Origin: Patescibacteria group bacterium
Lineage (GTDB): Bacteria; Patescibacteriota; Patescibacteriia; Buchananbacterales; UBA6539
Assembly (NCBI GenBank): GCA_034003985.1
Contig: JAVEXP010000003.1
Coordinates: 122,643-186,642 of the forward strand
Direction of reading: 5' to 3'
Length of the DNA: 64,000 bases
Shown piece after piece: positions 20,329-52,083 of the stretch (position 1 is its first letter; the number at the start of each line of letters is the position of its first letter). A model generated the notes under the pieces. The model had not been told where the DNA came from. It saw nothing but the letters and a program-made list of their open reading frames with translations, and ran no database searches. The position numbers and the translations under genes were made by a program.

Positions 20329-20592
20329 CTAAAGAACTTCGACCGAACCCACGACCTGGCCCCGATAGAACCACTGCTTCTTCAGGCCATTCCAGGTGAT
20401 GGCGGTATGGGTGGTGTTTTCCACCGTGAGCGACACCAATTCACCGTCGCCATTGGTATTCTTGACAATCAAGGTCCCTCCCGGGGATCGCAGGATCGAA
20501 TGCCCCTCTTCGGCCCTAATAACAAGCCGACTGCCGATTAACGCCTCATGCAGGATTCTGGTGATCTCTTGAGATGACATCTTTTCGGACAT
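20329..20592 (-). CDS. island gene G7, 87-aa hypothetical protein (weak HicA-like GH motif)
   Basis: AGGAGG RBS 7 nt upstream of ATG (MSEKMSSQ...). GC-rich relative to host. Confidence 0.5.
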   Translation of the reverse strand: MSEKMSSQEITRILHEALIGSRLVIRAEEGHSILRSPGGTLIVKNTNGDGELVSLTVENTTHTAITWNGLKKQWFYRGQVVGSVEVL

Positions 20593-20887
20593 GGCTGTAC
20601 CTCCTAAGTTACTGACTGCAGTTAGAAACACTCCGAGAAATTAAATTTATAAGATTTATTAAAAATTGTCAAAATCCTCAAAAAAATCACACCACTATTT
20701 GGTACGAACTAAAAAGCAAAAATACTGATGAAAAAATATAAAGCGCGTTTGGCCAAACATCCTAATTCAATGCCAGGGGGAAAAAGTTAATTTCCTTTTC
20801 TGCCTACCTAAATCACTTCTGGCTAAAAATAATTTTAGACAGAAATGGAGGAGAGAATTTTAGGTAAGCGGAAAAATAAACCATCTT

Positions 20888-20970
20888 CTTTCCTCAAGCT
20901 CCACCAAGTACCATGCCTGACAAGGTTAGTTGGAAGGAGGAACACGCCGCAAAGCTGGTGCTCCTCCATT
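20888..20970 (+). repeat. structured repeat element, copy 1 of a 5-member family (conserved box TTGGAAGGAGGA at 20930-20941)
   Basis: Shares about 45 nt (CCTCAAGC.CCAC.AAGTACCAT..) with copy 5. Covarying hairpin GGAGGAACAC/GTGCTCCTCC ends 8 nt from the G6 stop. Confidence 0.6.
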
Positions 20971-20975
20971 GTCAC

Positions 20976-21347
20976 TTAATCGGGATCCCAACCCCAAGTC
21001 TTATGGGGCTGGCGACTTCCACACCGGACCTCACCAAGAAAAATCCGGCTTTTGTACTTCCTTGGGAAAAAGACCACCTCCATGTGGTCATAACCTGCTG
21101 AGAATATCACTTTTTCTGGGATTTTTTCTACCCAGACCCATGCCAGCGCTGGGTTTTGACCAGAGAGAGGTCCAATATGGTTCATGAAGGATCGCCATTC
21201 GCGATTAAACCCCTCGACACAGTAGTCGGTCAAAACCTGGGTGGGTTCCGGCTTCTCGAAAACCAAGACAAACCCACTCTTTTCAGCCAAAATGGCTTTC
21301 GCCGCGGCGATTGCCTCATCATAGTATCCACCCTCTTCCTTTATCAT
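20976..21347 (-). CDS. island gene G6, 123-aa hypothetical protein
   Basis: AAGGAGAAG RBS 6 nt upstream of ATG (MIKEEGGYYDE...). Confidence 0.5.
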   Translation of the reverse strand: MIKEEGGYYDEAIAAAKAILAEKSGFVLVFEKPEPTQVLTDYCVEGFNREWRSFMNHIGPLSGQNPALAWVWVEKIPEKVIFSAGYDHMEVVFFPRKYKSRIFLGEVRCGSRQPHKTWGWDPD

Positions 21348-21419
21348 GATCTTCTCCTTTCCAAGATTTCGGCGCTACTAGCAGGTGTTCGTTTCCCGCT
21401 TCGCCAGCTCTATATTAAT

Positions 21420-21499
21420 CTTCCAACTAACCTCATCAAACCCTGAGCCCGATGAGATTAGTTGGAAGGAGGAGCACACAGTACCACTGGCACTCCTTC
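21420..21499 (+). repeat. structured repeat element, copy 2
   Basis: Near-perfect 18-bp palindrome CTTCCAACTAACCTCATC-13 nt-GATGAGATTAGTTGGAAG. Then GGAGGAG box and hairpin GAAGGAG/CTCCTTC ending 18 nt from the G5 stop. Confidence 0.6.
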
Positions 21500-21517
21500 G
21501 AGACGGTCACCTAGATC

Positions 21518-22084
21518 TTAAATCTCTGGCAACCGTCGCCAGCCGGGGGGAAACTCGTCTCGGGTATTTTTGTAGAATACCCAACCCGTCCATGTTCCAT
21601 CTTCACGAAGAAGACGAAAATACGGGAAACTGCTTGCACAGTTAAACCCCCCCTGCATTTGTTTTTTTTGCCAGCCTTTATAGCCAGCTGGCGGCTTGGA
21701 TGGGGCAATTCCCTTAAACCGAACACCCCGGTTCAGACAAGCAGCACTGGTGAAAATCACCAAGCCGCTGTCAATATCCAAGCTGCCGGAACCTGGATCA
21801 ACCAAGACAGCTCCTTGAAAATCAGGATGCTTCTTGATAAACTCCGTTGCTCTTGATCGAGCTACCGAGGATCGGCCGGCAAAAAAAACAACCGGCATCC
21901 TCAACAAATTCAACTGCCCATTTTTTATCGGCAGCTGCTGACGGGAGATGACATCCATCTTTCTCCGGTCATCACCCAAAAGATAGGCCAAGCCGGAAAA
22001 GTTGGAAACACTTTCCACCTTACCGTGCCGGCGAAAAACAACACGGATTTCTTCTGCAGCTAAAAAATCTCTGGTGTCCATCAT
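21518..22084 (-). CDS. island gene G5, 188-aa hypothetical protein (possible Rossmann/PRTase-like VLVDPGSGS motif)
   Basis: AAGGAGA RBS. Start at MMDTRDF... Confidence 0.5.
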   Translation of the reverse strand: MMDTRDFLAAEEIRVVFRRHGKVESVSNFSGLAYLLGDDRRKMDVISRQQLPIKNGQLNLLRMPVVFFAGRSSVARSRATEFIKKHPDFQGAVLVDPGSGSLDIDSGLVIFTSAACLNRGVRFKGIAPSKPPAGYKGWQKKQMQGGFNCASSFPYFRLLREDGTWTGWVFYKNTRDEFPPGWRRLPEI

Positions 22085-22195
22085 CAGGGTCTCCTTTTTT
22101 ATTACTTCTCCCAATGAGTCCACCTGCGCTTTACAGACGAACTCAAGAAGGAGCAGTACCGATCAAACCTCGGTCGGCACTGCTGTCAGGAAACA

Positions 22196-22687
22196 TCACC
22201 ACGGACAAGCCGTGGTTTCCGTTCCCGGAATTATCGGCTCACTGCCCCAAACCAGGGCGTGGCCGTCCCAGAATTCCCTCGCTTTCCTTTCCGCTTCCTG
22301 CGGATTGGCTTGTTGAGAAAAAAATCTGGCATCCCACGGCTCCGGTTCGGGGCGTTTACCAACAAAAGCCGTACGGACTTCATACTTGTCATCGCCGATC
22401 TTCTTCAAAACGACGACAACGCTTGAACACGGCTTGGCTTGGCGGTTTTTAACAAACCGAGTTAGGCCCAAACGCTTTGGTCGCCGGGCATACACGATTT
22501 GGTCGCCGGGCTTGGTGGCGACGCAGACCGTCTGCCCGATTTTCCGGCCAAAATCAATTTCCTCAAGAAAAAACTGCCTGCCCAAGGAATCAACTTTTGC
22601 CAATGCCTCGCCAAGCAGCATCTGCACATCGCCATGCAAATGGCTGTCAGTGCGGTCACAGACCGCTTCGCCCGATTTGAGCATCAT
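22196..22687 (-). CDS. island gene G4, 163-aa hypothetical protein
   Basis: GGAGGG RBS 8 nt upstream of ATGATG (MMLKSGEAV...). Promoter/operator just upstream. Confidence 0.5.
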   Translation of the reverse strand: MMLKSGEAVCDRTDSHLHGDVQMLLGEALAKVDSLGRQFFLEEIDFGRKIGQTVCVATKPGDQIVYARRPKRLGLTRFVKNRQAKPCSSVVVVLKKIGDDKYEVRTAFVGKRPEPEPWDARFFSQQANPQEAERKAREFWDGHALVWGSEPIIPGTETTACPW

Positions 22688-22735
22688 TGCTAAAACCCTC
22701 CATGATTGTAATTTCCTCATTTTCCAGACAAATTT

Positions 22736-22758
22736 TCATTAATGAAAATCATTAATGA
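22736..22758. promoter_or_regulatory. tandem operator: two copies of the perfect 10-bp palindrome TCATTAATGA separated by AAA
   Basis: Lies 50-70 nt upstream of the G4 start, within a minus-strand TTGTCT...TACAAT promoter-like region. Flanked by ACAAATT/AATTTGT inverted repeats. Confidence 0.5.
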
Positions 22759-22794
22759 GAGGAGAGACAATTTGTCCAGAAAATGAAAAAACTG

Positions 22795-22868
22795 ATTCCT
22801 GTTTTGCCAGTCAAAATTTCACGGGCAAAATTGGAAGGAGGAGTCGCAAGCACCACTTGGACTCCTCC
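22795..22868 (+). repeat. structured repeat element, copy 3
   Basis: ATTCCTGTTTTGCC-15 nt-GGCAAAATTGGAA palindrome. Then GGAGGAGTC-14 nt-GACTCCTCC hairpin. Confidence 0.55.
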
Positions 22869-23023
22869 GCATTAACCTGATGGTTTATTTTCTGCCCTCA
22901 CATCTTTGGGCCGATATCACTTTGCAACATTTCAGTTGCCGGATTTGCCTATCGCACCGGTCCCAATCATTCAAGATTGGCGCTTCTGTTAAGGCCTGAG
23001 CTTGCCTTTGGTCACCACCAGTG

Positions 23024-24223
23024 CTACTGCACCGCGATGACCAAGCCAAGAGCGATGTCCTGGACATGCGTCCAGGCAATCGTCGCCCCGGCTCCTGGCT
23101 GAAATGTCGCGCAGGCGGCCGCGCGACCGTGGTAGGCCATGGCCAAACTGGCCATCAGCCAGTTCGGGCCGCGGCCCGACAGAACCACGACCGTTCCCAG
23201 CCCGACTTCGGGCGGGACGATCATGTCGAGGGCCGCGGGCGCCAGGGGGACGCTCGGGTCGAGCGCGAACTCAACCCGCACGCACCGGCGCTCGCCCAGC
23301 GCCGGCAGATCGCTGACGGTCCAGCCGCAGCCGGAACCGTCACCCGACGGGCTGGGGCAGCCCACGGCGATGTAGCCGTCGGGCGAGTTCACCCGCGCCG
23401 AGCGCGGGTGAACCTCGTGCACCAGCGCGGCAACGAGCCACGCCGGTGCGGCGCCGTCGATATCCACCACCTCGGGGAAGGTGGCGGACTGATTATGGAG
23501 CAACCCCGCGACACTCGCGAGGTCTACCCCCTCCCAGCAAAGTTGCTGCACAACCTTGCCGTTAGGGAGCGTCCGCTCCACCGCGTTTTTCCCCAGCGCT
23601 GCGGCCAGCGCCGGGATCGAAATTACATTTCCGTTGAGGAGCATACGCCCCTCCTTTCTTTCGTTGCGGCCGAGCTCGGGCCCAGCCAGACTCAAAATCA
23701 ATTCCGCCACGGCGACGATCGCCGGGCGGTCGTTGACACTCACCTCGCCCCGTTCGAGGTGGTGAACCACTCCTTCCAGCCGGGGCACGGTCTGCTGGAT
23801 GGAGTCGGCGGCGCCTTGATAATCACTGTCCAAGACAGCGACCACCTCAACGCCCAGTTGGGCTAGGAACGCCTCCCACTCGGGGACGGCATTCCGATCA
23901 CCCGCGAGAATGATCCCGTGAGTGATCCCTCCCTCCGAAACGATGCGAGCGTTTTCGGAGGAAGTCCGGCCGCCGATATCCACGAGGACAATCGGCGCCA
24001 GACTGCAGGAGGCGAGAGACTGGCAGTACCAGTCAACTATCTCCTGCGAGAAAGACCCTTTACGACGGTGCTTTTCAGCACCATTGCCGCGCCAGGTCCA
24101 GCTCCCTTCCCCGTCCGGGCAGGCCCGGAACAGGTAACGGGAACTTCTTGGCAGGTTCTCGCATAACCCGCCAAGAAATACGGACTTCCCACTGTGGGGA
24201 GGTCCGGCGACAACGATTTTCAT
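23024..24223 (-). CDS. island gene G3, very GC-rich P-loop NTPase (Walker A GPPHSGKS, DIGG Walker B/G3-like) with uncharacterised C-terminal half
   Basis: AAAGGAGG RBS 6 nt upstream of ATG (MKIVVAGPPHSGKSVF...). About 400 codons. Plus-strand ORFs over it are Arg-rich antisense shadows. Confidence 0.6.
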   Translation of the reverse strand: MKIVVAGPPHSGKSVFLGGLCENLPRSSRYLFRACPDGEGSWTWRGNGAEKHRRKGSFSQEIVDWYCQSLASCSLAPIVLVDIGGRTSSENARIVSEGGITHGIILAGDRNAVPEWEAFLAQLGVEVVAVLDSDYQGAADSIQQTVPRLEGVVHHLERGEVSVNDRPAIVAVAELILSLAGPELGRNERKEGRMLLNGNVISIPALAAALGKNAVERTLPNGKVVQQLCWEGVDLASVAGLLHNQSATFPEVVDIDGAAPAWLVAALVHEVHPRSARVNSPDGYIAVGCPSPSGDGSGCGWTVSDLPALGERRCVRVEFALDPSVPLAPAALDMIVPPEVGLGTVVVLSGRGPNWLMASLAMAYHGRAAACATFQPGAGATIAWTHVQDIALGLVIAVQ

Positions 24224-24296
24224 CGCTGCCTCCTTTCTCCCCGATTGGGGAGTTTTTATTTTTATGGAAACCAGCCGCCTCACATCAGCGTCCGGG

Positions 24297-24380
24297 AATT
24301 TCCCTCAGGACTTACCAACAGACAAACATATTGCTGATAAATCCAGTTGGGAGGAGGAACTACTGAACCACAGCCGTTCC
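24297..24380 (+). repeat. structured repeat element, copy 4 (diverged)
   Basis: TTCCCTCAGG...ACCAAC...GTTGGGAGGAGGAAC. Weaker hairpin GGAAC/GTTCC. Confidence 0.4.
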
Positions 24381-24623
24381 CCCAAATAACCAATGGCACC
24401 ACGCGGCGGTGCCACTATCACGATCGATTAACCCCCATCGATCAAAGGAGTATTCAGATTTACTCTCGAAAGAGAGAAGGCCTAACACACAAGGCCTTTT
24501 GCCAATGCTTTTACGCGGATGGCTGCTCTAATTACTAGAGCTTTACCGCAACTCGGATAATTTAATACCCGAGGCTATGATGGTACAAACCGCAAATACT
24601 TACACACGGTTTGTACCCCCCCA

Positions 24624-24833
24624 TCAAGGTCCCTCGATCAGTCGGCGAACCGACCGCTCAAGGGATCTTTTGATCCCCCACGAGATTTGGGCCCCCAGCA
24701 GGGAGCCCGCCTGGCAGGATACCTCAATATCGATTGGACCATCGAGGTATTCAATGGCGGCCAAAGCCGCCGGCAAGTCCTTCTTGTCGACGGCGGCTGT
24801 AAGCCGCCGAAATCCTTCTAACAATTCATCCAT
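24624..24833 (-). CDS. island gene G2, 69-aa hypothetical protein
   Basis: AAGGAGGA RBS 6 nt upstream of ATG. Followed 10 nt after its stop by a perfect 11-bp hairpin. Confidence 0.45.
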   Translation of the reverse strand: MDELLEGFRRLTAAVDKKDLPAALAAIEYLDGPIDIEVSCQAGSLLGAQISWGIKRSLERSVRRLIEGP

Positions 24834-24926
24834 GGCGTCCTCCTTTCATAGAGTTTCGGCTCGCCACGAGCCGCCCCCTAGGGGAAATTTCTTCTTTTCC
24901 CGCGCCGCACATTGGCTCGAGATTTT

Positions 24927-25001
24927 TTCCCTCAAGCCCCACAAGTACCATACTTGTGAAGCTAATTGGAAGGAGAAGCCGACAAAGCAGTCGGCTTCTC
25001 C
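24927..25001 (+). repeat. structured repeat element, copy 5
   Basis: TTCCCTCAAGCCCCACAAGTACCAT. Then CACAAGTA/TACTTGTG hairpin, TTGGAAGGAG box, and 12-bp hairpin GGAGAAGCCGAC/GTCGGCTTCTCC ending 8 nt from the G1 stop. Confidence 0.6.
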
Positions 25002-25009
25002 GTTATTAA

Positions 25010-25273
25010 TTAGTCGTACTTAACAACTGTTTCCATCTCTTCCGTATTTCTCGACTGACAATTCGGGCACATCGGCTTAAGTATTTTATGCGTCAGTTCC
25101 CCGCCGCAGTCGTCGCATTTGCCAACGGCATTTTCATCAAAGCCATCTCGGGGCAAAGCTTTTATTTTATCGCAATCAAGGCAATGATAATTATAGAATA
25201 AGGCACCATCGCCCAAATTGGACCTAAATTCATTTTGGCAATCATTGCACTTGCACATCACAATAATACCCAT
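25010..25273 (-). CDS. island gene G1, double zinc-ribbon small protein (four CxxC pairs)
   Basis: CKCNDC...CLDC...CDDC...CPNC in 87 aa. Confidence 0.55.
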   Translation of the reverse strand: MGIIVMCKCNDCQNEFRSNLGDGALFYNYHCLDCDKIKALPRDGFDENAVGKCDDCGGELTHKILKPMCPNCQSRNTEEMETVVKYD

Positions 25274-38086: not shown

Positions 38087-38234
38087 AAAGCAGTCAATCA
38101 ACAGATTGCTGCTTTAAATCAGGAAACTGATGATCCCCTAAGAGGAGGATAAACACGGGGGTTAAGAATGAAACGGAATCACTACGCCACAACTGGGACA
38201 TGATCCCAAAAACTTGATGAAGGAGGAATTCATC

Positions 38235-39620
38235 ATGACTCGACGATTTTGGTTTCAAGGCAAAACGCCAATAGCGTTTTGCCCCGACAGCAGCGAACCG
38301 CTGGTCTTTCGCCACTACCAGGCGGAAGCGGAAATCACGGTCCAGATTAACGGCGGCAAGGTGACCAAAACCATGGCCGAATGGCTGCGTTTTGCGGGTT
38401 GCCACTGGCACACCGCTCTGGATGGCGGCGCCGATCCGTTCGGCGGTCCCACCTTGCTGCGCGAATGGAACATTGGCGATGATCCGCTGGCAGTCGCACG
38501 CCAGCGCATTGACGCGATGTTTGAACTCATGGGTTTGCTTGGGATCAAGCATTGGACCTTCCACACCCTCGATCTGATCGAGGAAGGCGCCAACTTTGCC
38601 GAAACCAAGCAACGCCTGATGGCGCTGTTGCCTTATGTCAAACAGCGCCTGAAAGAAACTGGCATCAAGGTGCTATGGGTTACGGCCAAGCTGTTTGCCG
38701 CAAACCGCTATATGAACGGCGCCATGACCGGCACCGAGCCCGACATTTGGATTGAAGCCGGCGCGCAGATCAAGCTGGCAATTGACATTGCCCACGAGCT
38801 TGATGCCGCGGGAGTGGTGTTCTGGGGCGGGCGCGAAGGCTACGAAACCCTGCTGAATACCATGATCGGGCTGGAACTCGAAAACCTGGCCACCATGCTC
38901 CGGGCGGCCGTTAATTACAAAGCAAAAATCGGCTTTAAGGGCCAGTTCTACATTGAGCCCAAAGCCCAGGAACCCACAACCCATCAATACGACTACGATG
39001 TAGCGACGGTTGTCGGTTTTCTGCGAGACTATGCCCTGGACGGGGAATTCATGGTGAACTTTGAGCCCAATCACGGCAGTCTGGCCAAACACACCACCGC
39101 CCACGAGATGGCAATGATCAATTGCTGCAATGTGTTTGGGTCAATTGACGCCAACCAGGGTACGGAGACTGTCGGCTGGGACACCGACGAATTCCCCTGC
39201 AACCTGGAAACGGCCGTGGTGGTGATGCTGGAAGTCTTGAAAAACAGCGGCTTTACCACCGGCGGGCTGAATTTCGACGCCAAACTCCGGCGCGCGAGCA
39301 CCGCTCTTGACGACTTGTTCATGGGCTTCATTATGGCCATGGACACCTACGCCGCGGCATTGAAAATCGCGGCACGGATTATCAACGACGGAATTCTCGC
39401 CGAGATGGTACAGCGGCGATACTGCAAGTGGTCGAACACCGCCAACGGGGTGAAAATCGCCAACGGCGACATGAGCCTGGAAGACTGTGAAGAACTGACC
39501 GAGAGATTCGAGACCCATCCGGTCGCCGAAAGCGGCCACGCCGAGTTCTTCAAGACGGTTTGGGCCGCCTACCTGCGGGGTGATGCCGTGATCCCCAAGC
39601 CCACCCAGTACCAAGACTAA
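38235..39620 (+). CDS. xylA: xylose isomerase (GC-rich, horizontally acquired)
   Basis: WGGREGYETL, FYIEPKAQEP, NFEPNHGSLAKHTTAHE motifs. AAGGAGGA RBS 7 nt before the ATG at 38235. The ORF track's TTG start at 38214 lacks an RBS. Confidence 0.85.
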   Translation: MTRRFWFQGKTPIAFCPDSSEPLVFRHYQAEAEITVQINGGKVTKTMAEWLRFAGCHWHTALDGGADPFGGPTLLREWNIGDDPLAVARQRIDAMFELMGLLGIKHWTFHTLDLIEEGANFAETKQRLMALLPYVKQRLKETGIKVLWVTAKLFAANRYMNGAMTGTEPDIWIEAGAQIKLAIDIAHELDAAGVVFWGGREGYETLLNTMIGLELENLATMLRAAVNYKAKIGFKGQFYIEPKAQEPTTHQYDYDVATVVGFLRDYALDGEFMVNFEPNHGSLAKHTTAHEMAMINCCNVFGSIDANQGTETVGWDTDEFPCNLETAVVVMLEVLKNSGFTTGGLNFDAKLRRASTALDDLFMGFIMAMDTYAAALKIAARIINDGILAEMVQRRYCKWSNTANGVKIANGDMSLEDCEELTERFETHPVAESGHAEFFKTVWAAYLRGDAVIPKPTQYQD

Positions 39621-45359: not shown

Positions 45360-46496
45360 ATGGCTTTGAACGAAACTCAACAAATTATCCAAGAAATTAA
45401 AAAAAGTCACCACCTTCTGATTACTTTCCGCAAAGACTTTAGCGTAGACGCTGTAGCTTCGGCTGTAGCGCTCTATTTAGTTTTAAAAAAACAAGGCAAG
45501 ATCGTTGATATCGCCTGCGACAATATTGAAATGCCAAAAAATTTAAGTTTCCTGCCCAAGATTGAACATATTAATAAAAAAATTGACAACATCCAAAAGT
45601 TTATCATCAGCGTTGATGTCGCTAATGATAAAATCGACGAATTCAGCTACAATATTGAAGGCGATCAATTAAAAATTTATATTACCCCCAAAGCCGGATC
45701 ATTCAAAAAAGAAGATGTTAAAACCCAAAACTCCAAATATCGCTATGACCTAATCATCACCCTGGATACGCCGGATTTGGAATCACTTGGTAAAATCTTC
45801 AAAGACTTTACCGACTTTTTTTACAGCACCACAATCATTAATATTGATCATAACCCCGAAAATGAATATTACGGTCAAATTAATCTGACCAACCTCAATG
45901 CCGTAGCCACTGCCGAAGTACTGTTCCAACTGATTAATGATATCGACCAAAATATATTGGATAAAGATATTGCCACTTGCTTATTGACTGGTTTGATCGC
46001 CAAAACCAGAAGCTTTAAAACGCCAAATGTCACACCCAAAACTTTGGCAATTGCCGGCCAACTGATGGCCAAAGGCGCCGAGAATGAAACCATCATTAAA
46101 AGTCTGTACCGCTCACGAAGCCTGACAACTTTAAATCTCTGGGGGCGAGTGTTAGCCAGACTAAAAAGTCGCGACAATAATAAATTGGTTTGGTCGCTAT
46201 TGACCGAACATGATTTTGTAGAAGCCCAAGCCCAGGTCAGAGACTTGCCCGATGTAATTGAAGAATTAATATCATTTATTCCGGGAGTAGAAATCGTTGT
46301 TTTAATCTATCAATTTCAAGGACAAACTAAAGTATTAATCAACACCTTCAAAAGCCATAACGCGATGTATCTAGCCAGCCAATTCAAACCAACTGGTTCC
46401 AAACATTTGGCTGAATTCCAGCTGGAAGGCCTAACTCTCTTGGATGCTGAAAAAGAAATCATTGAAAATTTGAAAACCAAGCTTGGTCAAAAATAA
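45360..46496 (+). CDS. DHH/DHHA1 phosphoesterase, NrnA-like nanoRNase/pAp phosphatase
   Basis: DHH motif region (IDHNP) and DHHA1 C-terminal domain. Confidence 0.7.
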   Translation: MALNETQQIIQEIKKSHHLLITFRKDFSVDAVASAVALYLVLKKQGKIVDIACDNIEMPKNLSFLPKIEHINKKIDNIQKFIISVDVANDKIDEFSYNIEGDQLKIYITPKAGSFKKEDVKTQNSKYRYDLIITLDTPDLESLGKIFKDFTDFFYSTTIINIDHNPENEYYGQINLTNLNAVATAEVLFQLINDIDQNILDKDIATCLLTGLIAKTRSFKTPNVTPKTLAIAGQLMAKGAENETIIKSLYRSRSLTTLNLWGRVLARLKSRDNNKLVWSLLTEHDFVEAQAQVRDLPDVIEELISFIPGVEIVVLIYQFQGQTKVLINTFKSHNAMYLASQFKPTGSKHLAEFQLEGLTLLDAEKEIIENLKTKLGQK

Positions 46497-46554
46497 TCAG
46501 GCTTGTTATAATAAAAAAGCCCAATCAAATCCAAGCCGGGCCTCAATTAGCAAT

Positions 46555-46630
46555 GCCCATGTAGCTCAGCGGTTAGAGCGCCACCCTTATAAGGTGGATG
46601 TCGGTGGTTCAAATCCACCCATGGGCACCA
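46555..46630 (+). tRNA. tRNA-Ile (anticodon TAT)
   Basis: Anticodon stem CCACC/GGTGG with loop CTTATAA. CCA encoded. Confidence 0.7.
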
Positions 46631-46710
46631 ACTCAATTTTTAGCTATTGACAATTGGGATGATGTAAAGTATTTTATATAAGTTAATTACTAGGAGTTAA
46701 AAGTTATTTT

Positions 46711-46787
46711 GGGCGGTTAGCTCAGTTGGTTAGAGCGCATGCTCGACACGCATGAGGTCAGTGGTTCGAATCCACTATCGCCCACCA
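46711..46787 (+). tRNA. tRNA-Val (anticodon GAC)
   Basis: Anticodon stem CATGC/GCATG with loop TCGACAC. CCA encoded. Confidence 0.8.
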
Positions 46788-46799
46788 GATTTTCAAAGG

Positions 46800-46830
46800 C
46801 ATCTCACGATTTTAAACTGAGATGTTTTTT
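46800..46830 (+). terminator. intrinsic terminator after the tRNA pair
   Basis: CATCTCA-11 nt-TGAGATG plus TTTTTT. Confidence 0.75.
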
Positions 46831-46833
46831 GAT

Positions 46834-46886
46834 AAAAAAAGAGCCATGCTCTCACCTGCCCTTCCCCGCATAGGTAGATCATGGCT
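46834..46886 (-). terminator. intrinsic terminator for the GC-rich mini-island genes
   Basis: AGCCATG...CATGGCT hairpin followed by a U7 tract on the minus strand. Confidence 0.55.
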
Positions 46887-46915
46887 GATCAAATCATTTC
46901 ATTGCTGTTTGGCCG

Positions 46916-47179
46916 TCAGTTGGCCAACTGGGCCAACCAAATGCAGAATTGGAGGTACTCTGCTTCCGCCTGTTGGGCCAATTCGTTTTCCGCAGCCTCC
47001 TGGGCCGCAAGATGACTCATACCCAGGGCCTTAGCCTGGGCGGCGATTATGCCATCGACCAAGTCGACGGCCTGCTTCGCCACCGCATCATTGGCAATAG
47101 CGTGGGGTTCAGGATACCACTCCAGCCCGGTCAAAGCCTTGAATCGAACATATGCATCGTTCAAAACATGTCTTCTCAT
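46916..47179 (-). CDS. 87-aa hypothetical protein, GC-rich with strong SD
   Basis: AAGGAGG RBS 6 nt upstream of ATG (MRRHVLNDAYVRF...). Confidence 0.5.
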   Translation of the reverse strand: MRRHVLNDAYVRFKALTGLEWYPEPHAIANDAVAKQAVDLVDGIIAAQAKALGMSHLAAQEAAENELAQQAEAEYLQFCIWLAQLAN

Positions 47180-47197
47180 GATACCTCCTTGGCCGCG

Positions 47198-47329
47198 CTA
47201 GTGCTGACCGTTTTTTTTCCGACGAAACTTCTTCCTCTTTCCTCCTCCTGGCTTAGCACCGCAATGCTTGCCCGGACCGCCGTACTTAAGGTTACAAGCT
47301 CGTCGACCATACTTGCTACCGTGTGCCAT
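47198..47329 (-). CDS. 43-aa Lys/Gly-rich basic peptide, GC-rich with strong SD. Not in the ORF track
   Basis: AAGGAGATT RBS. MAHGSKYGRRACNLKYGGPGKHCGAKPGGGKRKKFRRKKNGQH. Promoter TTGACT-17-TAAGAT upstream. Confidence 0.4.
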   Translation of the reverse strand: MAHGSKYGRRACNLKYGGPGKHCGAKPGGGKRKKFRRKKNGQH

Positions 47330-47437
47330 GTGACTAATCTCCTTGTTGCTGGCTACCACAAATTACCGATTTGATTGCTGTTATCTTAGATATTTTCACC
47401 AATTAAGTCAAATGACAAAATATGATAAAATAATTAT

Positions 47438-48901
47438 ATGACTAAAATCCCAACCGGGCTTGAAACCGCCCAAAATAAACAATTTATTATTGCACTTAAA
47501 AAACGCTTCAGCCAGGCGGAATTGTTTTTGGTTGGCGGCATTGTCCGCGACGCTTTTTTAAACAAGCCGACCAAAGATATCGACTTAGTAATTCGCAATG
47601 TCAACAAAGCCCAACTGGAAAAATTCCTGGCCAGCCAAGGCAAAGTTAATCTGGTAGGAAAAAAATTCGGGGTCTTTAAATTCCTGCCTCGGGGTTGGCA
47701 AGGCCCAGAGATTGATATTGCCTTACCGCGTACTGAACACTCAATTGGTCTAAACGGCGGCTATAAAAATTTCAAAATTAACTCTAACGCCAAATTAAAA
47801 ATTGAAGACGACTTAAGCCGACGAGATTTTACCATCAACGCCATGGCCTGGGACATCACCAACCAAAAGTTAATTGATCCTTTCGGCGGGTTCAAGGATT
47901 TAGCAAAACGCACAATTAAAGCAGTTGGCCGGCCTGAACTAAGATTTAAAGAAGATTATTCGCGAATGCTGCGGGCAATCAGATTTTCCTGCCAGCTAGA
48001 TTTTAAAATTGAACAAGCAACCTGGAAAGCGATAATCAAGGAAATTAAAAAAATAAACAAAGTTGTGGCCGGCGAAAGAATCGTACCCCATGAAGTGATT
48101 GCCAAAGAGTTAGTTAAAGCAATCGGCACCAATCCGCTAAAGGCAATTGACTTATTAGATAAGAGCGGGGCCTTAAAGGTGCTCATCCCAGAATTATTAA
48201 AAATGAAAGGCTGTCCGCAGCCGCGTAAATGGCACACCGAAGGCGATTGCTGGAAACACACCCTGTTAGCGATTGCCAACCTAGCCAGCCAAAAATTTAA
48301 AAAAGAATTCCCGAATCAACCAATTACTGCTGAGTTAATTTGGGGATTATTATTTCACGATTTAGGCAAACCTTATACCATCAAACGAGCTGATCGCCTA
48401 AGATTCAATAACCACGATAATGTTTCGGCCAAAAAATTCGAAGAAATTGCCAGACGATTGAAATTGTCTTCGGCCAGTCTTGATATTGATAAAGTCAGCC
48501 AGCTGATTGCTAAACACATGTTCCCGACCCACAGCAAAAGTTCGGAGATGAAAGACACAACGGTTGAAAAATACTTCTTTAATCCTGATTTTCCAGGAGC
48601 AGAATTGATGATGTTGATTTTTGCCGATATTTCAGCTACCATACCCAAAACCGGCAAACCTGATTTTACCGAATATTTAATAATAAAGAAACGGATCGCC
48701 AAGTTAGCAAAGCAAGGTCGAGGCCAACAATTGCCAAAACCACTAGTTAATGGTAAGGATGTTATTAAAAAATTCCAATTAAAACCAGGGCCACAAATTG
48801 GCCAACTGCTTAACATTGCCCGGGAAGCCCAATTAACAGGCAAGGCCACAACTAAAAGCGCCATTTTAAAATTGCTGGCCAAAAAAATAAAAATATCATG
48901 A
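47438..48901 (+). CDS. cca: CCA-adding tRNA nucleotidyltransferase with HD domain
   Basis: GGIVRD, DIDL, RRDFTINAMA head-domain motifs. HDLGK HD motif. Confidence 0.85.
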   Translation: MTKIPTGLETAQNKQFIIALKKRFSQAELFLVGGIVRDAFLNKPTKDIDLVIRNVNKAQLEKFLASQGKVNLVGKKFGVFKFLPRGWQGPEIDIALPRTEHSIGLNGGYKNFKINSNAKLKIEDDLSRRDFTINAMAWDITNQKLIDPFGGFKDLAKRTIKAVGRPELRFKEDYSRMLRAIRFSCQLDFKIEQATWKAIIKEIKKINKVVAGERIVPHEVIAKELVKAIGTNPLKAIDLLDKSGALKVLIPELLKMKGCPQPRKWHTEGDCWKHTLLAIANLASQKFKKEFPNQPITAELIWGLLFHDLGKPYTIKRADRLRFNNHDNVSAKKFEEIARRLKLSSASLDIDKVSQLIAKHMFPTHSKSSEMKDTTVEKYFFNPDFPGAELMMLIFADISATIPKTGKPDFTEYLIIKKRIAKLAKQGRGQQLPKPLVNGKDVIKKFQLKPGPQIGQLLNIAREAQLTGKATTKSAILKLLAKKIKIS

Positions 48902-51189: not shown

Positions 51190-51447
51190 ATGATTGGTCA
51201 AATAATACTTGGCATTATTATCGCCGCTATCGGAGCATTGGTAACAATAAAATCTGAATGGTTTTATCAAAATTTTGGCAGCATTCCGTCAGCCGATAAA
51301 TATCTTGGCACCGAAGGCGGTAGCCGACTGGCCTATAAATTAATTGGCATAATAATTGCTATCATCGGCTTTTTGATAATGACCAATTTAGTAGAAGCGG
51401 TCTTGCAATCATTGGCTGCCATATTAATCCCCGGCTCGGGTAGATAG
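51190..51447 (+). CDS. small (85 aa) two-TM membrane protein
   Basis: Hydrophobic ORF between tRNA genes. Confidence 0.35.
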   Translation: MIGQIILGIIIAAIGALVTIKSEWFYQNFGSIPSADKYLGTEGGSRLAYKLIGIIIAIIGFLIMTNLVEAVLQSLAAILIPGSGR

Positions 51448-51954: not shown

Positions 51955-52083
51955 ATGCCAGCTAAAAAGAAAGTTGCTAAAAAGAAAACAGCTGCTAAGC
52001 GCAAACCGGCCAAAAAGGTAGCCAAGAAAAAAGTTGCCAAAAAAACTGCCAAGAAAAAACCGGCGAAAAGAAAAAAACGCTAA
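51955..52083 (+). CDS. 42-aa Lys/Ala-rich histone H1/HC1-like basic protein. Not in the ORF track
   Basis: GAAAGGAGGTGA RBS. MPAKKKVAKKKTAAKRKPAKKVAKKKVAKKTAKKKPAKRKKR. Terminator follows. Confidence 0.5.
   Translation: MPAKKKVAKKKTAAKRKPAKKVAKKKVAKKTAKKKPAKRKKR

What the first reader, a model, noticed from the sequence alone, without database searches (positions are those of the whole stretch)
46834..47345. 0.5-kb GC-rich mini-island abutting tRNA-Val, encoding two tiny strong-SD proteins
Directly after the tRNA-Ile/tRNA-Val pair and its terminator there is a short GC-rich block with its own promoter (TTGACT-17-TAAGAT, minus strand) and its own terminator (AGCCATG...CATGGCT plus U7).

It encodes a 43-aa Lys/Gly-rich basic peptide (MAHGSKYGRRACNLKYGGPGKHCGAKPGGGKRKKFRRKKNGQH) that is absent from the ORF track, and an 87-aa protein. 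Both have AAGGAGG sites.

tRNA 3' ends are classic integration hot-spots. A two-gene module of a tiny basic peptide plus a small partner could be a toxin/immunity or stress-peptide pair. I see no obvious direct repeat of the tRNA 3' end at the far boundary.
Basis: partly seen in the sequence, partly recalled or inferred. Interest (0 to 1): 0.55.

Follow-up and report, generated by a model that had tools for sequence, protein, structure and literature searches.

The report
Conserved basic-peptide/acidic-protein operon beside cca
The GC-rich block next to tRNA-Val is not an inserted island but an old, vertically inherited two-gene operon of a Patescibacteria lineage, coding for an unannotated 43-residue highly basic micro-protein and an 87-residue acidic helical protein of an uncharacterised family, and its function is still unknown.

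Summary
At 46834-47411 on the minus strand there is a promoter, two genes with Shine-Dalgarno (SD) ribosome-binding sites (43 aa and 87 aa) and a hairpin-U7 terminator. GC is 0.546 against a window mean of 0.427, the 96th percentile.

Both ORFs are real genes. Against a related contig (L001), 14 of 15 nucleotide differences in the 43-aa ORF fall at codon position 3 (dN/dS 0.024). The 87-aa gene has dN/dS 0.25. Their dS (0.56-0.64) matches that of the neighbouring cca gene (0.55).

The island reading fails. There is no att repeat and no integrase. The 87-aa family sits divergently next to cca in at least seven lineages, with cca identity down to 54%. tRNA-Val(gac)/tRNA-Ile(tat) lie convergently downstream in four of them.

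The 87-aa protein belongs to a tiny family of about 14 small, mostly acidic proteins found among 1.8 billion representatives. It has no Pfam, NCBIfam, PHROG or PADLOC match. A confident AF2 model (pLDDT 94) has no Foldseek match in the PDB.

The 43-aa peptide has one distant homologue (L017, z=7.7), again directly upstream of a family member. Other lineages carry unrelated but equally basic tiny ORFs in that position.

My best guess, which is inferred, is an RNA-associated polycationic micro-protein with an acidic partner. Interest is modest.

The parts
47383..47411 (-). Sigma-70-type promoter TTGACT-17-TAAGAT of the two-gene operon
   Evidence: Consensus scan. Both hexamers are identical in L001. 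The same TTGAC[TCA]-16 to 18-TAnnnT motif lies upstream of the family gene in 12 of 13 loci.
47339..47344 (-). Shine-Dalgarno AAGGAG, 9 nt before the ATG of the 43-aa gene
   Evidence: Read directly from the sequence. Conserved in L001.
47198..47329 (-). Unannotated gene for a 43-aa polycationic micro-protein, MAHGSKYGRRACNLKYGGPGKHCGAKPGGGKRKKFRRKKNGQH (charge +14, pI 11.2)
   Evidence: dN/dS 0.024 against L001, with 14 of 15 differences at codon position 3. Homologous 40-aa ORF in L017, z=7.7. No secondary structure predicted, pLDDT 60.
47184..47190 (-). Shine-Dalgarno AAGGAGG, 4 nt before the ATG of the 87-aa gene
   Evidence: Read directly from the sequence. Conserved in L001.
46916..47179 (-). 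Gene for an 87-aa acidic (pI 4.9) all-helical protein of an uncharacterised family (motif LTGLEWYPEP ... VDxIIAAQA ... H)
   Evidence: dN/dS 0.25. Family of about 14 small proteins. AF2 pLDDT 94.3, pTM 0.85. No Pfam, NCBIfam, PHROG or PADLOC match, and no PDB or BFVD match.
46834..46886 (-). Intrinsic terminator of the operon: 45-nt hairpin AGCCATG...CATGGCT followed by C+U7
   Evidence: RNA fold and terminator scan. 100% identical in L001.
46800..46831 (+). Terminator of the tRNA-Ile/tRNA-Val transcript (CATCTCA-11-TGAGATG + T6), back to back with the operon terminator
   Evidence: Sequence and fold, and inverted repeat I7.
46711..46787 (+). tRNA-Val(gac), the convergent neighbour (context, not an integration target)
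   Evidence: ARAGORN. Same convergent arrangement in L001, L015 and L016.
47438..48901 (+). cca (class II CCA-adding enzyme with HD domain), the divergent neighbour that is the conserved anchor of the module
   Evidence: NCBIfam CCA tRNA nucleotidyltransferase, 2.7e-56. Divergent pairing with the family gene in seven lineages.

Best explanation
This is a vertically inherited, lineage-specific operon of a Patescibacteria clade.

Shown:
- It has one sigma-70-type promoter placed back to back with cca, two translated genes and one intrinsic terminator facing the tRNA-Val terminator.
- It encodes a 43-residue, Gly/Lys/Arg-rich, apparently disordered polycation (+14).
- It also encodes an 87-residue acidic helical protein of a small uncharacterised family.

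Inferred:
- The polycation is an RNA-binding (tRNA- or ribosome-associated) micro-protein.
- The acidic helical protein is its stoichiometric partner, acting as a charge-neutralising chaperone or regulator.
- Both work in the tRNA/translation context of their neighbourhood (ValRS, NrnA-like DHH, tRNAs, cca, RluD-type pseudouridine synthase, L19).

The helical protein is the constant component of the locus. The basic peptide slot between promoter and helical-protein gene is evolutionarily fluid: it has been kept, replaced, duplicated or lost.
For: Real genes under purifying selection: dN/dS is 0.024 (43 aa) and 0.25 (87 aa), with dS 0.56-0.64 against 0.55 for cca. In the 43-aa ORF, 14 of 15 differences fall at codon position 3.

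Conserved position:
- The family gene is divergent to cca in the window, L001, L002, L003 (with L004-6 and L012), L007, L008 and L013.
- Identity ranks of cca (91, 68, 64, 62, 54%) and of the family protein (76, then about 49-31% in local matches) run roughly in parallel.
- tRNA-Val(gac)/tRNA-Ile(tat) lie convergently downstream in L001, L015 and L016.
- A promoter motif lies upstream in 12 of 13 loci. It is 78-148 nt from the family start where there is no peptide ORF, and 209-386 nt where there is one.

Ancient pairing: the L017 40-aa ORF aligns without gaps to the 43-aa peptide (score 95, z=7.7, p<=2e-4) and lies directly upstream of family member P0014.

Recurrent basic ORFs (+9 to +15) in the same slot:
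- L014 and L011 (mutually homologous, z=6.4).
- L008, with two peptides per module in two paralogous modules (z=10 and 16; dN/dS 0.47 for the peptide-B pair).
- L016.

Charge complementarity: 13 of 15 family members have pI below 5.7.

The neighbourhood is tRNA/translation-related.

A 22-column profile match links the family to the second helix and TGxxWxP tail of WHEP-TRS, an appended domain of eukaryotic aminoacyl-tRNA synthetases (hhalign probability 87%; HMM hits 1e-5 to 7e-4).
Against: - No direct evidence for RNA binding or for an interaction between the two products.
- Five lineages have the family gene with no basic ORF directly upstream (L002, L003, L007, L009, L015). The helical protein therefore does not strictly need the peptide.
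- Most upstream peptides are not demonstrably homologous to the 43-aa one (p=0.24-1.0).
- One family member is basic, with pI 10.2.
- The WHEP similarity covers only half a domain and may be a convergent motif. Pfam's WHEP-TRS model does not hit any member.
- GC3 of the gene is atypical for this genome. Vertical descent does not explain that.
Confidence: 0.4

Rival explanations
1. Toxin-antidote (type II TA-like) or toxin/immunity pair. The polycationic peptide would be toxic, binding nucleic acid or acting on membranes, and the acidic helical protein would neutralise it.
For: - Two small co-transcribed genes 18 nt apart.
- Strong charge complementarity.
- The peptide partner varies between lineages while the other partner is conserved.
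- Tandem duplicated modules in L008.
Against: - Single copy in the window.
- Fixed syntenic position with dS equal to the neighbour.
- No hit in PADLOC, Pfam, PHROGs, phage or plasmid collections.
- The putative toxin is the most constrained gene of the locus, with dN/dS 0.024.
- No signal or leader sequence, transporter or membrane immunity protein.
- Several lineages keep the 'antidote' alone.
Confidence: 0.12
2. The tiny basic ORFs are regulatory leader peptides (uORFs). Their translation (polybasic or Lys/Arg-codon-rich stretches) would tune expression of the helical-protein gene, perhaps in response to tRNA status. The peptide product itself would have no function.
For: - The peptides always lie between the promoter and the family gene.
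- Their sequences are mostly unrelated between lineages yet share composition.
- One lineage (L013) has lost the ORF through deletions that are not multiples of three while keeping the flanking leader DNA.
Against: - Whole-length amino-acid conservation in window versus L001 (42/43), and ungapped homology to L017.
- Synonymous AAA/AAG and GGN changes are tolerated, so codon identity is not what is conserved.
- Both genes have their own strong SD sites.
- Only 18 nt separate them, which leaves no room for an attenuator or antiterminator.
Confidence: 0.15
3. The helical protein is a dedicated cofactor or regulator of the divergently transcribed CCA-adding enzyme (tRNA 3'-end maturation or repair). 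The basic peptide would be an optional accessory.
For: - The cca adjacency is the most conserved feature of the family.
- Local WHEP-like motif.
- In L002 the domain is fused to zinc-ribbon-like CxxC pairs typical of nucleic-acid-binding modules.
Against: - Adjacency alone. Divergent genes share a control region, not necessarily a function.
- For five short contigs (L009, L011, L014, L016, L017) the neighbour cannot be seen.
- No known CCA-adding enzyme needs a protein partner (my own knowledge).
Confidence: 0.15
4. A horizontally acquired mini-island integrated at the 3' end of tRNA-Val.
For: - GC 0.546 against 0.427, and GC3 0.625 against about 0.42 for the neighbour.
- Position next to a tRNA gene.
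- A 14-nt direct repeat with one mismatch flanks the two genes at 46896 and 47369.
Against: - No repeat of the tRNA 3' end and no integrase.
- The 14-nt repeat is not kept in L001, and about 0.1 such repeats are expected by chance (my own estimate).
- Same locus and order in relatives down to 54% cca identity.
- dS equals the flanking gene.
- No phage, plasmid or viral-contig relatives.
- In L002 and L003 the family gene has no GC3 excess.
Confidence: 0.03

Closest known systems
WHEP-TRS domain (Pfam PF00458) of eukaryotic aminoacyl-tRNA synthetases
   Same: The first helix plus the conserved loop of the 87-aa family (xxDVxxxFKxLTGLEWYPxP) matches the second helix and tail of WHEP repeats (LLxLKxxYKxxTGxDWKP). 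hhalign probability is 87% over 22 columns. The family profile picks up multi-WHEP proteins at 1e-5 to 7e-4. Both occur in a tRNA-related setting.
   Different: Only half of the 53-residue helix-turn-helix is matched. No member reaches Pfam's model even at E<=10. The repeats inflate the full-sequence scores. The rest of the protein (three more helices, invariant Q48, H56) has no WHEP counterpart.
Type II toxin-antitoxin modules
   Same: Two small adjacent co-transcribed genes with one basic and one acidic product.
   Different: No homology to any TA or defence family. Single, syntenic, vertically inherited locus. The basic product is extremely conserved rather than fast-evolving.
Very small polybasic ribosomal proteins (bTHX, bS22, bL37) and dedicated acidic chaperones of ribosomal proteins (eukaryotic Acl4, Yar1 and others; compared from my own knowledge)
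   Same: Size (25-45 aa), extreme positive charge, lack of intrinsic structure, strong purifying selection, and location among translation genes. An acidic helical partner resembles the chaperone-client logic.
   Different: No sequence match to any ribosomal protein model. No structural or biochemical evidence. Dedicated chaperones of this kind are not established in bacteria.
tRNA-targeting integrative islands
   Same: Compositionally distinct DNA next to a tRNA 3' end.
   Different: No integrase and no att repeat, and it is present at the same site in distant relatives.

Membership tests
tRNA-integrated genomic island | Direct repeat of the tRNA 3' end (attL/attR) at the far boundary | tested here: not met
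   The 25-nt 3' end of tRNA-Val occurs once in the window even with 3 mismatches allowed. No repeat family links 46763-46787 to 47300-47460.
tRNA-integrated genomic island | Integrase or recombinase gene inside the element | tested here: not met
   Only two small ORFs lie between tRNA-Val and cca. Neither has any Pfam, NCBIfam or PHROG match.
tRNA-integrated genomic island | Variable presence, or younger than the flanking genes | tested here: not met
   dS is 0.56-0.64 against 0.55 for cca. The same gene order is found in relatives with cca identity down to 54%.
tRNA-integrated genomic island | Atypical base composition | tested here: met
   GC 0.546 against 0.427, the 96th percentile. GC3 0.625 against a mean of 0.457, sd 0.084.
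Type II toxin-antitoxin / defence module | Homology of either product to a known toxin, antitoxin or defence family | tested here: not met
   No Pfam, PADLOC, PHROG or NCBIfam match passing a threshold; the only hit is one PHROG at E=0.075.
Type II toxin-antitoxin / defence module | Patchy, mobile, often multi-copy distribution (plasmids, phages, islands) | tested here: not met
   One copy in the window. No tblastn hit in 50,697 phage or 72,556 plasmid records and none in viral contigs. The locus is syntenic.
Type II toxin-antitoxin / defence module | Toxicity of one product, neutralised by direct binding of the other | not testable with these tools
   Needs expression experiments.
WHEP-TRS domain (PF00458) | Match to the full ~53-residue helix-turn-helix model at Pfam's gathering score | tested here: not met
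   None of 15 members hit PF00458 at E<=10. The profile-profile match covers only 22 columns.
Small polybasic ribosomal proteins (bTHX, bS22, bL37 and similar) | Sequence match to a ribosomal protein model or to a chain in a solved ribosome | tested here: not met
   No Pfam or NCBIfam hit. The peptide profile finds no PDB chain at E<=10.
Small polybasic ribosomal proteins (bTHX, bS22, bL37 and similar) | Physical presence in purified ribosomes | not testable with these tools
   Needs ribosome proteomics or cryo-EM from this uncultured lineage.
Transcription-attenuation leader peptide | Alternative terminator/antiterminator structure between the leader ORF and the regulated gene | tested here: not met
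   Only 18 nt, which contain the SD, separate the 43-aa stop (47198) from the 87-aa start (47179).

The most novel reading that the evidence does not exclude
The pair is a previously unrecognised, Patescibacteria-specific translation or tRNA factor. On this reading the 43-aa polycation is built into or onto an RNA machine (ribosome, tRNA or the CCA-adding complex). The 87-aa acidic protein, whose confidently predicted helical fold has no Foldseek match in the PDB, is its dedicated chaperone or adaptor. That would be a bacterial counterpart of the dedicated ribosomal-protein chaperones known from eukaryotes.
Probability: 0.15. Interest if true: 0.6.

Novelty: categorically new. Interest (0 to 1): 0.35.

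Why it matters
If the pair proves to be an RNA-associated micro-protein with a dedicated acidic partner, it would add a lineage-specific component to the pared-down translation apparatus of CPR/Patescibacteria. It would also be an example of a functional protein under 50 aa that standard annotation misses: the peptide is absent from the NCBI record.

As it stands, the label 'categorically new' applies only in a weak sense. No known family, fold or system fits, and the function is unproven. The practical value so far is threefold:
- a corrected annotation, with a new 43-aa gene and the 87-aa start;
- a defined small protein family with a conserved link to cca;
- removal of a false 'island' call.

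Tried and rejected
- **Homologues of the 43-aa peptide.** The word-indexed 5.8-billion-protein search found no candidates. Pattern scans of genome, metagenome and viral contigs found nothing confirmed. The one distant homologue (L017) was found only by reading the DNA upstream of family members.
- **Known families.** Pfam, NCBIfam, PHROGs and PADLOC gave nothing for either protein or for the other upstream peptides.
- **PDB sequence search.** The family profile gave only repeat-inflated TPR-like noise.
- **Rfam** on 46400-47500 found only the two tRNAs.
- **In-frame arrangement.** The two ORFs are separated by a stop plus 6 codons in the window and a stop plus 8 in L001. I rejected this as meaningful because the stop codon differs (TAG/TAA) and the L017 pair is out of frame.
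- **Alternative frame.** The frame called by the gene finder in L001 (50 aa, ATGA overlap with the next gene) was rejected: 30/43 identity against 43/44.
- **Antisense ORF.** The 141-aa plus-strand ORF at 46949-47374 was rejected as a shadow ORF. Third positions of the sense frame fall on its first positions. By my own count from the ORF listings, it differs at about 13 of 47 residues over the peptide region.
- **Homology among upstream peptides.** Homology of the 43-aa peptide to those of L003, L008, L011, L014 and L016 is not significant by shuffling.
- **14-nt flanking direct repeat.** Not conserved in L001.
- **Literature.** Searches found nothing on this family.

Full report
**1. What is there.**
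The window comes from a 195.7-kb contig of a Patescibacteria (CPR) MAG. After tRNA-Ile(tat) (46555-46630) and tRNA-Val(gac) (46711-46787) comes the tRNA terminator at 46800-46831. Everything from there to cca belongs to the minus strand:
- promoter TTGACT-17-TAAGAT at 47411-47383;
- AAGGAG, a 9-nt spacer, then the ATG of a 43-aa ORF (47329-47198);
- 18 nt that contain AAGGAGG;
- an 87-aa ORF (47179-46916);
- a 45-nt hairpin followed by U7 (46886-46834).

The next gene, divergent on the plus strand, is a class II CCA-adding enzyme with an HD domain (47438-48901).

The block 46916-47329 has 54.6% GC against 42.7% for the window. That is about 2 sd above the mean and in the 96th percentile of windows of equal size. 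GC3 of the 87-aa gene is 0.625, against 0.42 for cca. The composition difference is moderate, and the window holds stronger GC-rich blocks.

**2. Both ORFs are genes.**
A related 2.4-kb contig (L001) carries the same arrangement: cca, peptide, protein, tRNA-Val. The 43-aa ORF differs at 15 of 132 nucleotides. Fourteen of these are at codon position 3, and they cause one amino-acid change (F35S). Nei-Gojobori estimates are:

| Gene | dS | dN | dN/dS |
|---|---|---|---|
| 43-aa peptide | 0.635 | 0.015 | 0.024 |
| 87-aa protein | 0.558 | 0.141 | 0.25 |
| cca | 0.546 | – | 0.089 |

(all)

The tiny peptide is thus the most constrained gene of the locus. The module has diverged for as long as its neighbour.

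I rejected two competing readings:
- The overlapping frame that a gene caller chose in L001 is far less conserved.
- So is the 141-aa antisense ORF.

The peptide is missing from the NCBI annotation, because the accessions of the two flanking proteins are consecutive.

**3. Not an island.**
No copy of the tRNA-Val 3' end exists elsewhere in the window, even with 3 mismatches allowed. No repeat links it to the far boundary, and there is no integrase. A 14-nt imperfect direct repeat flanks the two genes, but it is not kept in L001.

More decisively, the 87-aa protein belongs to a small family whose members lie divergently next to cca in many places: L001, L002, L003 (with L004-L006 and L012), L007 and L013. 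In L008, the first 133 nt encode the cca N-terminus on the other strand.

cca identity to the window falls from 91% to 54% across these loci. The family protein's identity falls roughly in parallel, from 76% to about 31-49% in local matches. This fits co-inheritance.

tRNA-Val(gac) and tRNA-Ile(tat) lie convergently downstream of the family gene in L015 and L016 as well, and about 2 kb away in L002. The order cca / module / tRNA-Val / tRNA-Ile is therefore ancestral for this clade.

The family has no relatives in phage, plasmid or viral-contig collections.

**4. The 87-aa family.**
An exhaustive HMMER scan of 1.84 billion representative proteins found 18 hits at E<=1e-3:
- thirteen proteins of 78-99 aa;
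- the 163-aa L002 protein, in which the domain is fused to a two-Cys N-terminal extension and four C-terminal CxxC pairs;
- four eukaryote-type multi-WHEP proteins, as weak hits.

The alignment of 15 members shows two invariant residues (I45, L67). Ten more are nearly invariant: T17, Y22, P23, V41, I44, Q48, A49, H56, A59 and A71. They fall within the motifs LTGLEWYPxP and VDxIIAAQA.

No member matches Pfam, and the members tested match no NCBIfam or PHROG family above threshold; the window's two proteins have no PADLOC hit. Thirteen of the 15 are acidic, with pI below 5.7.

The only link to known proteins is local. A profile-profile comparison aligns 22 columns (the first helix plus the TGLEWYP loop) to the second helix and tail of WHEP-TRS repeats, at 87% probability. 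This is a lead, not membership.

**5. The peptide and its slot.**
No homologue of the 43-aa peptide was found by database search. Reading the DNA upstream of family members was more productive.

L017 has a 40-aa ORF, MSHGSHAGEQKKRLQYRGPGKNCGKGKGNKKKTKRRGKKK, with its own SD. It lies behind a TTGACT-17-TAAGGT promoter, directly upstream of family member P0014. It aligns without gaps to the window's peptide, with 19 invariant positions. The score is 95 and z is 7.7, with p<=2e-4 in 5000 composition-preserving shuffles. Since P0014 is only about 30% identical to the 87-aa protein, the pairing is old.

Other lineages carry different tiny ORFs in the same slot, all strongly basic (+9 to +15):
- L014 and L011, which are homologous to each other (z=6.4). 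The L014 ORF is degraded in the close relative L013 by deletions of 58 and 13 nt.
- A second peptide in L011.
- Two peptides per module in the two tandem modules of L008 (paralogue z=10 and 16; dN/dS 0.47 for the peptide-B pair).
- An acidic-then-basic 61-aa ORF in L016.

None of these is significantly similar to the 43-aa peptide.

Five lineages have no ORF there (L002, L003, L007, L009, L015). In those, the promoter lies 78-148 nt from the family start, against 209-386 nt where peptides are present.

Folded alone, the 43-aa peptide shows no secondary structure (pLDDT 60).

**6. Interpretation.**
- *Shown:* a conserved, expressed-looking operon; two proteins under purifying selection; an ancient and recurrent pairing of a polycationic micro-protein with an acidic helical protein; a fixed place between cca and tRNA genes, in a neighbourhood of ValRS, an NrnA-like DHH protein, an RluD-type pseudouridine synthase and L19.
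- *Inferred:* the polycation binds RNA; the acidic protein binds or regulates it (chaperone-client logic); the pair acts in tRNA or ribosome biology.

I give this 0.4. The rivals are:
- a toxin-antidote pair (0.12), disfavoured by fixed synteny, the single copy, the extreme conservation of the 'toxin' and the absence of any mobile or defence signature;
- leader-peptide regulation (0.15), disfavoured by whole-length amino-acid conservation and the lack of room for an attenuator;
- a cca cofactor role for the helical protein, with the peptide as an accessory (0.15);
- an integrated island (0.03).

The elevated GC3 in the window, L001, L007, L013 and L014, but not in L002 or L003, remains unexplained.

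**7. Verdict.**
The 'island at a tRNA hot-spot' reading is refuted, and the 'two-gene module' reading is supported.

The proteins fit no known family, fold or system, so formally this is new. With no functional evidence, though, it is one of many conserved hypothetical operons of CPR bacteria. Interest is modest (0.35). The more exciting reading, a lineage-specific translation or tRNA factor with a dedicated chaperone, has about 15% probability.

Noticed in passing
window 20329-25023: A GC-rich block (GC 0.50-0.65, GC3 up to 0.76) of hypothetical genes. It includes a 419-aa AAA-Csx3 fusion at 23024-24283 on the minus strand (Pfam Cas_csx3 2e-16; PADLOC Csx3-AAA 1e-48). This is a much better candidate for foreign or defence DNA than the finding itself.
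   Followed up: partly
window 38214-39620 (+): A 468-aa gene with GC 0.57 and GC3 0.72. Its only match is a weak, sub-threshold one to the xylose-isomerase-like TIM barrel (AP_endonuc_2). Compositionally it is an outlier.
   Followed up: no
window 51190-51447 (+); L003 1656-1913 (-): An 85-aa hydrophobic (probably membrane) protein gene sits inside a tRNA cluster, between tRNA-Val(tac) and tRNA-Ala. It is conserved in sequence and in that exact position in L003. No Pfam family.
   Followed up: partly
window 51955-52083 (+); L003 254-391 (-): A second tiny polybasic gene: a 42-aa AKKK-repeat protein (MPAKKKVAKKKTAAKRKPAKK...). It is conserved as a 45-aa ORF in L003 and looks histone-H1-like. 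No Pfam match.
   Followed up: partly
window 46788-46899: The 112 nt holding the two back-to-back terminators between tRNA-Val and the 87-aa gene are 100% identical to L001, although synonymous sites have diverged by about 0.55 and the other intergenic region by about 10%. The stretch is not conserved in L015 or L016, and Rfam has no match.
   Followed up: partly
window 46555-46630; L002 4567-4641; L015 675-749; L016 733-808: tRNA-Ile with anticodon TAT (UAU) is conserved next to tRNA-Val(gac) across this clade. To my knowledge, bacteria usually read AUA with a lysidine-modified CAU tRNA, so a UAU tRNA-Ile is uncommon.
   Followed up: no
L008 150-1480: Two tandem paralogous modules, each with promoter, 32-34-aa basic ORF, 52-aa basic ORF and a small protein. 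The first ends in an unrelated 80-aa protein and the second in the family member.
   Followed up: partly
L002 (CAZHUO010000006.1): The contig is labelled 'uncultured Gammaproteobacteria bacterium'. Its cca is 68% identical to the window's Patescibacteria cca, and it shares the module and the tRNA-Ile(tat)/Val(gac) pair. It is probably mis-binned or mislabelled. Its family member is fused to four CxxC pairs.
   Followed up: partly
window 46949-47374 (+): A 141-aa antisense ORF spans both genes, with a 159-aa counterpart in L001. It is a shadow ORF of the GC3-rich sense genes and could be mistaken for the gene by an ORF track.
   Followed up: yes
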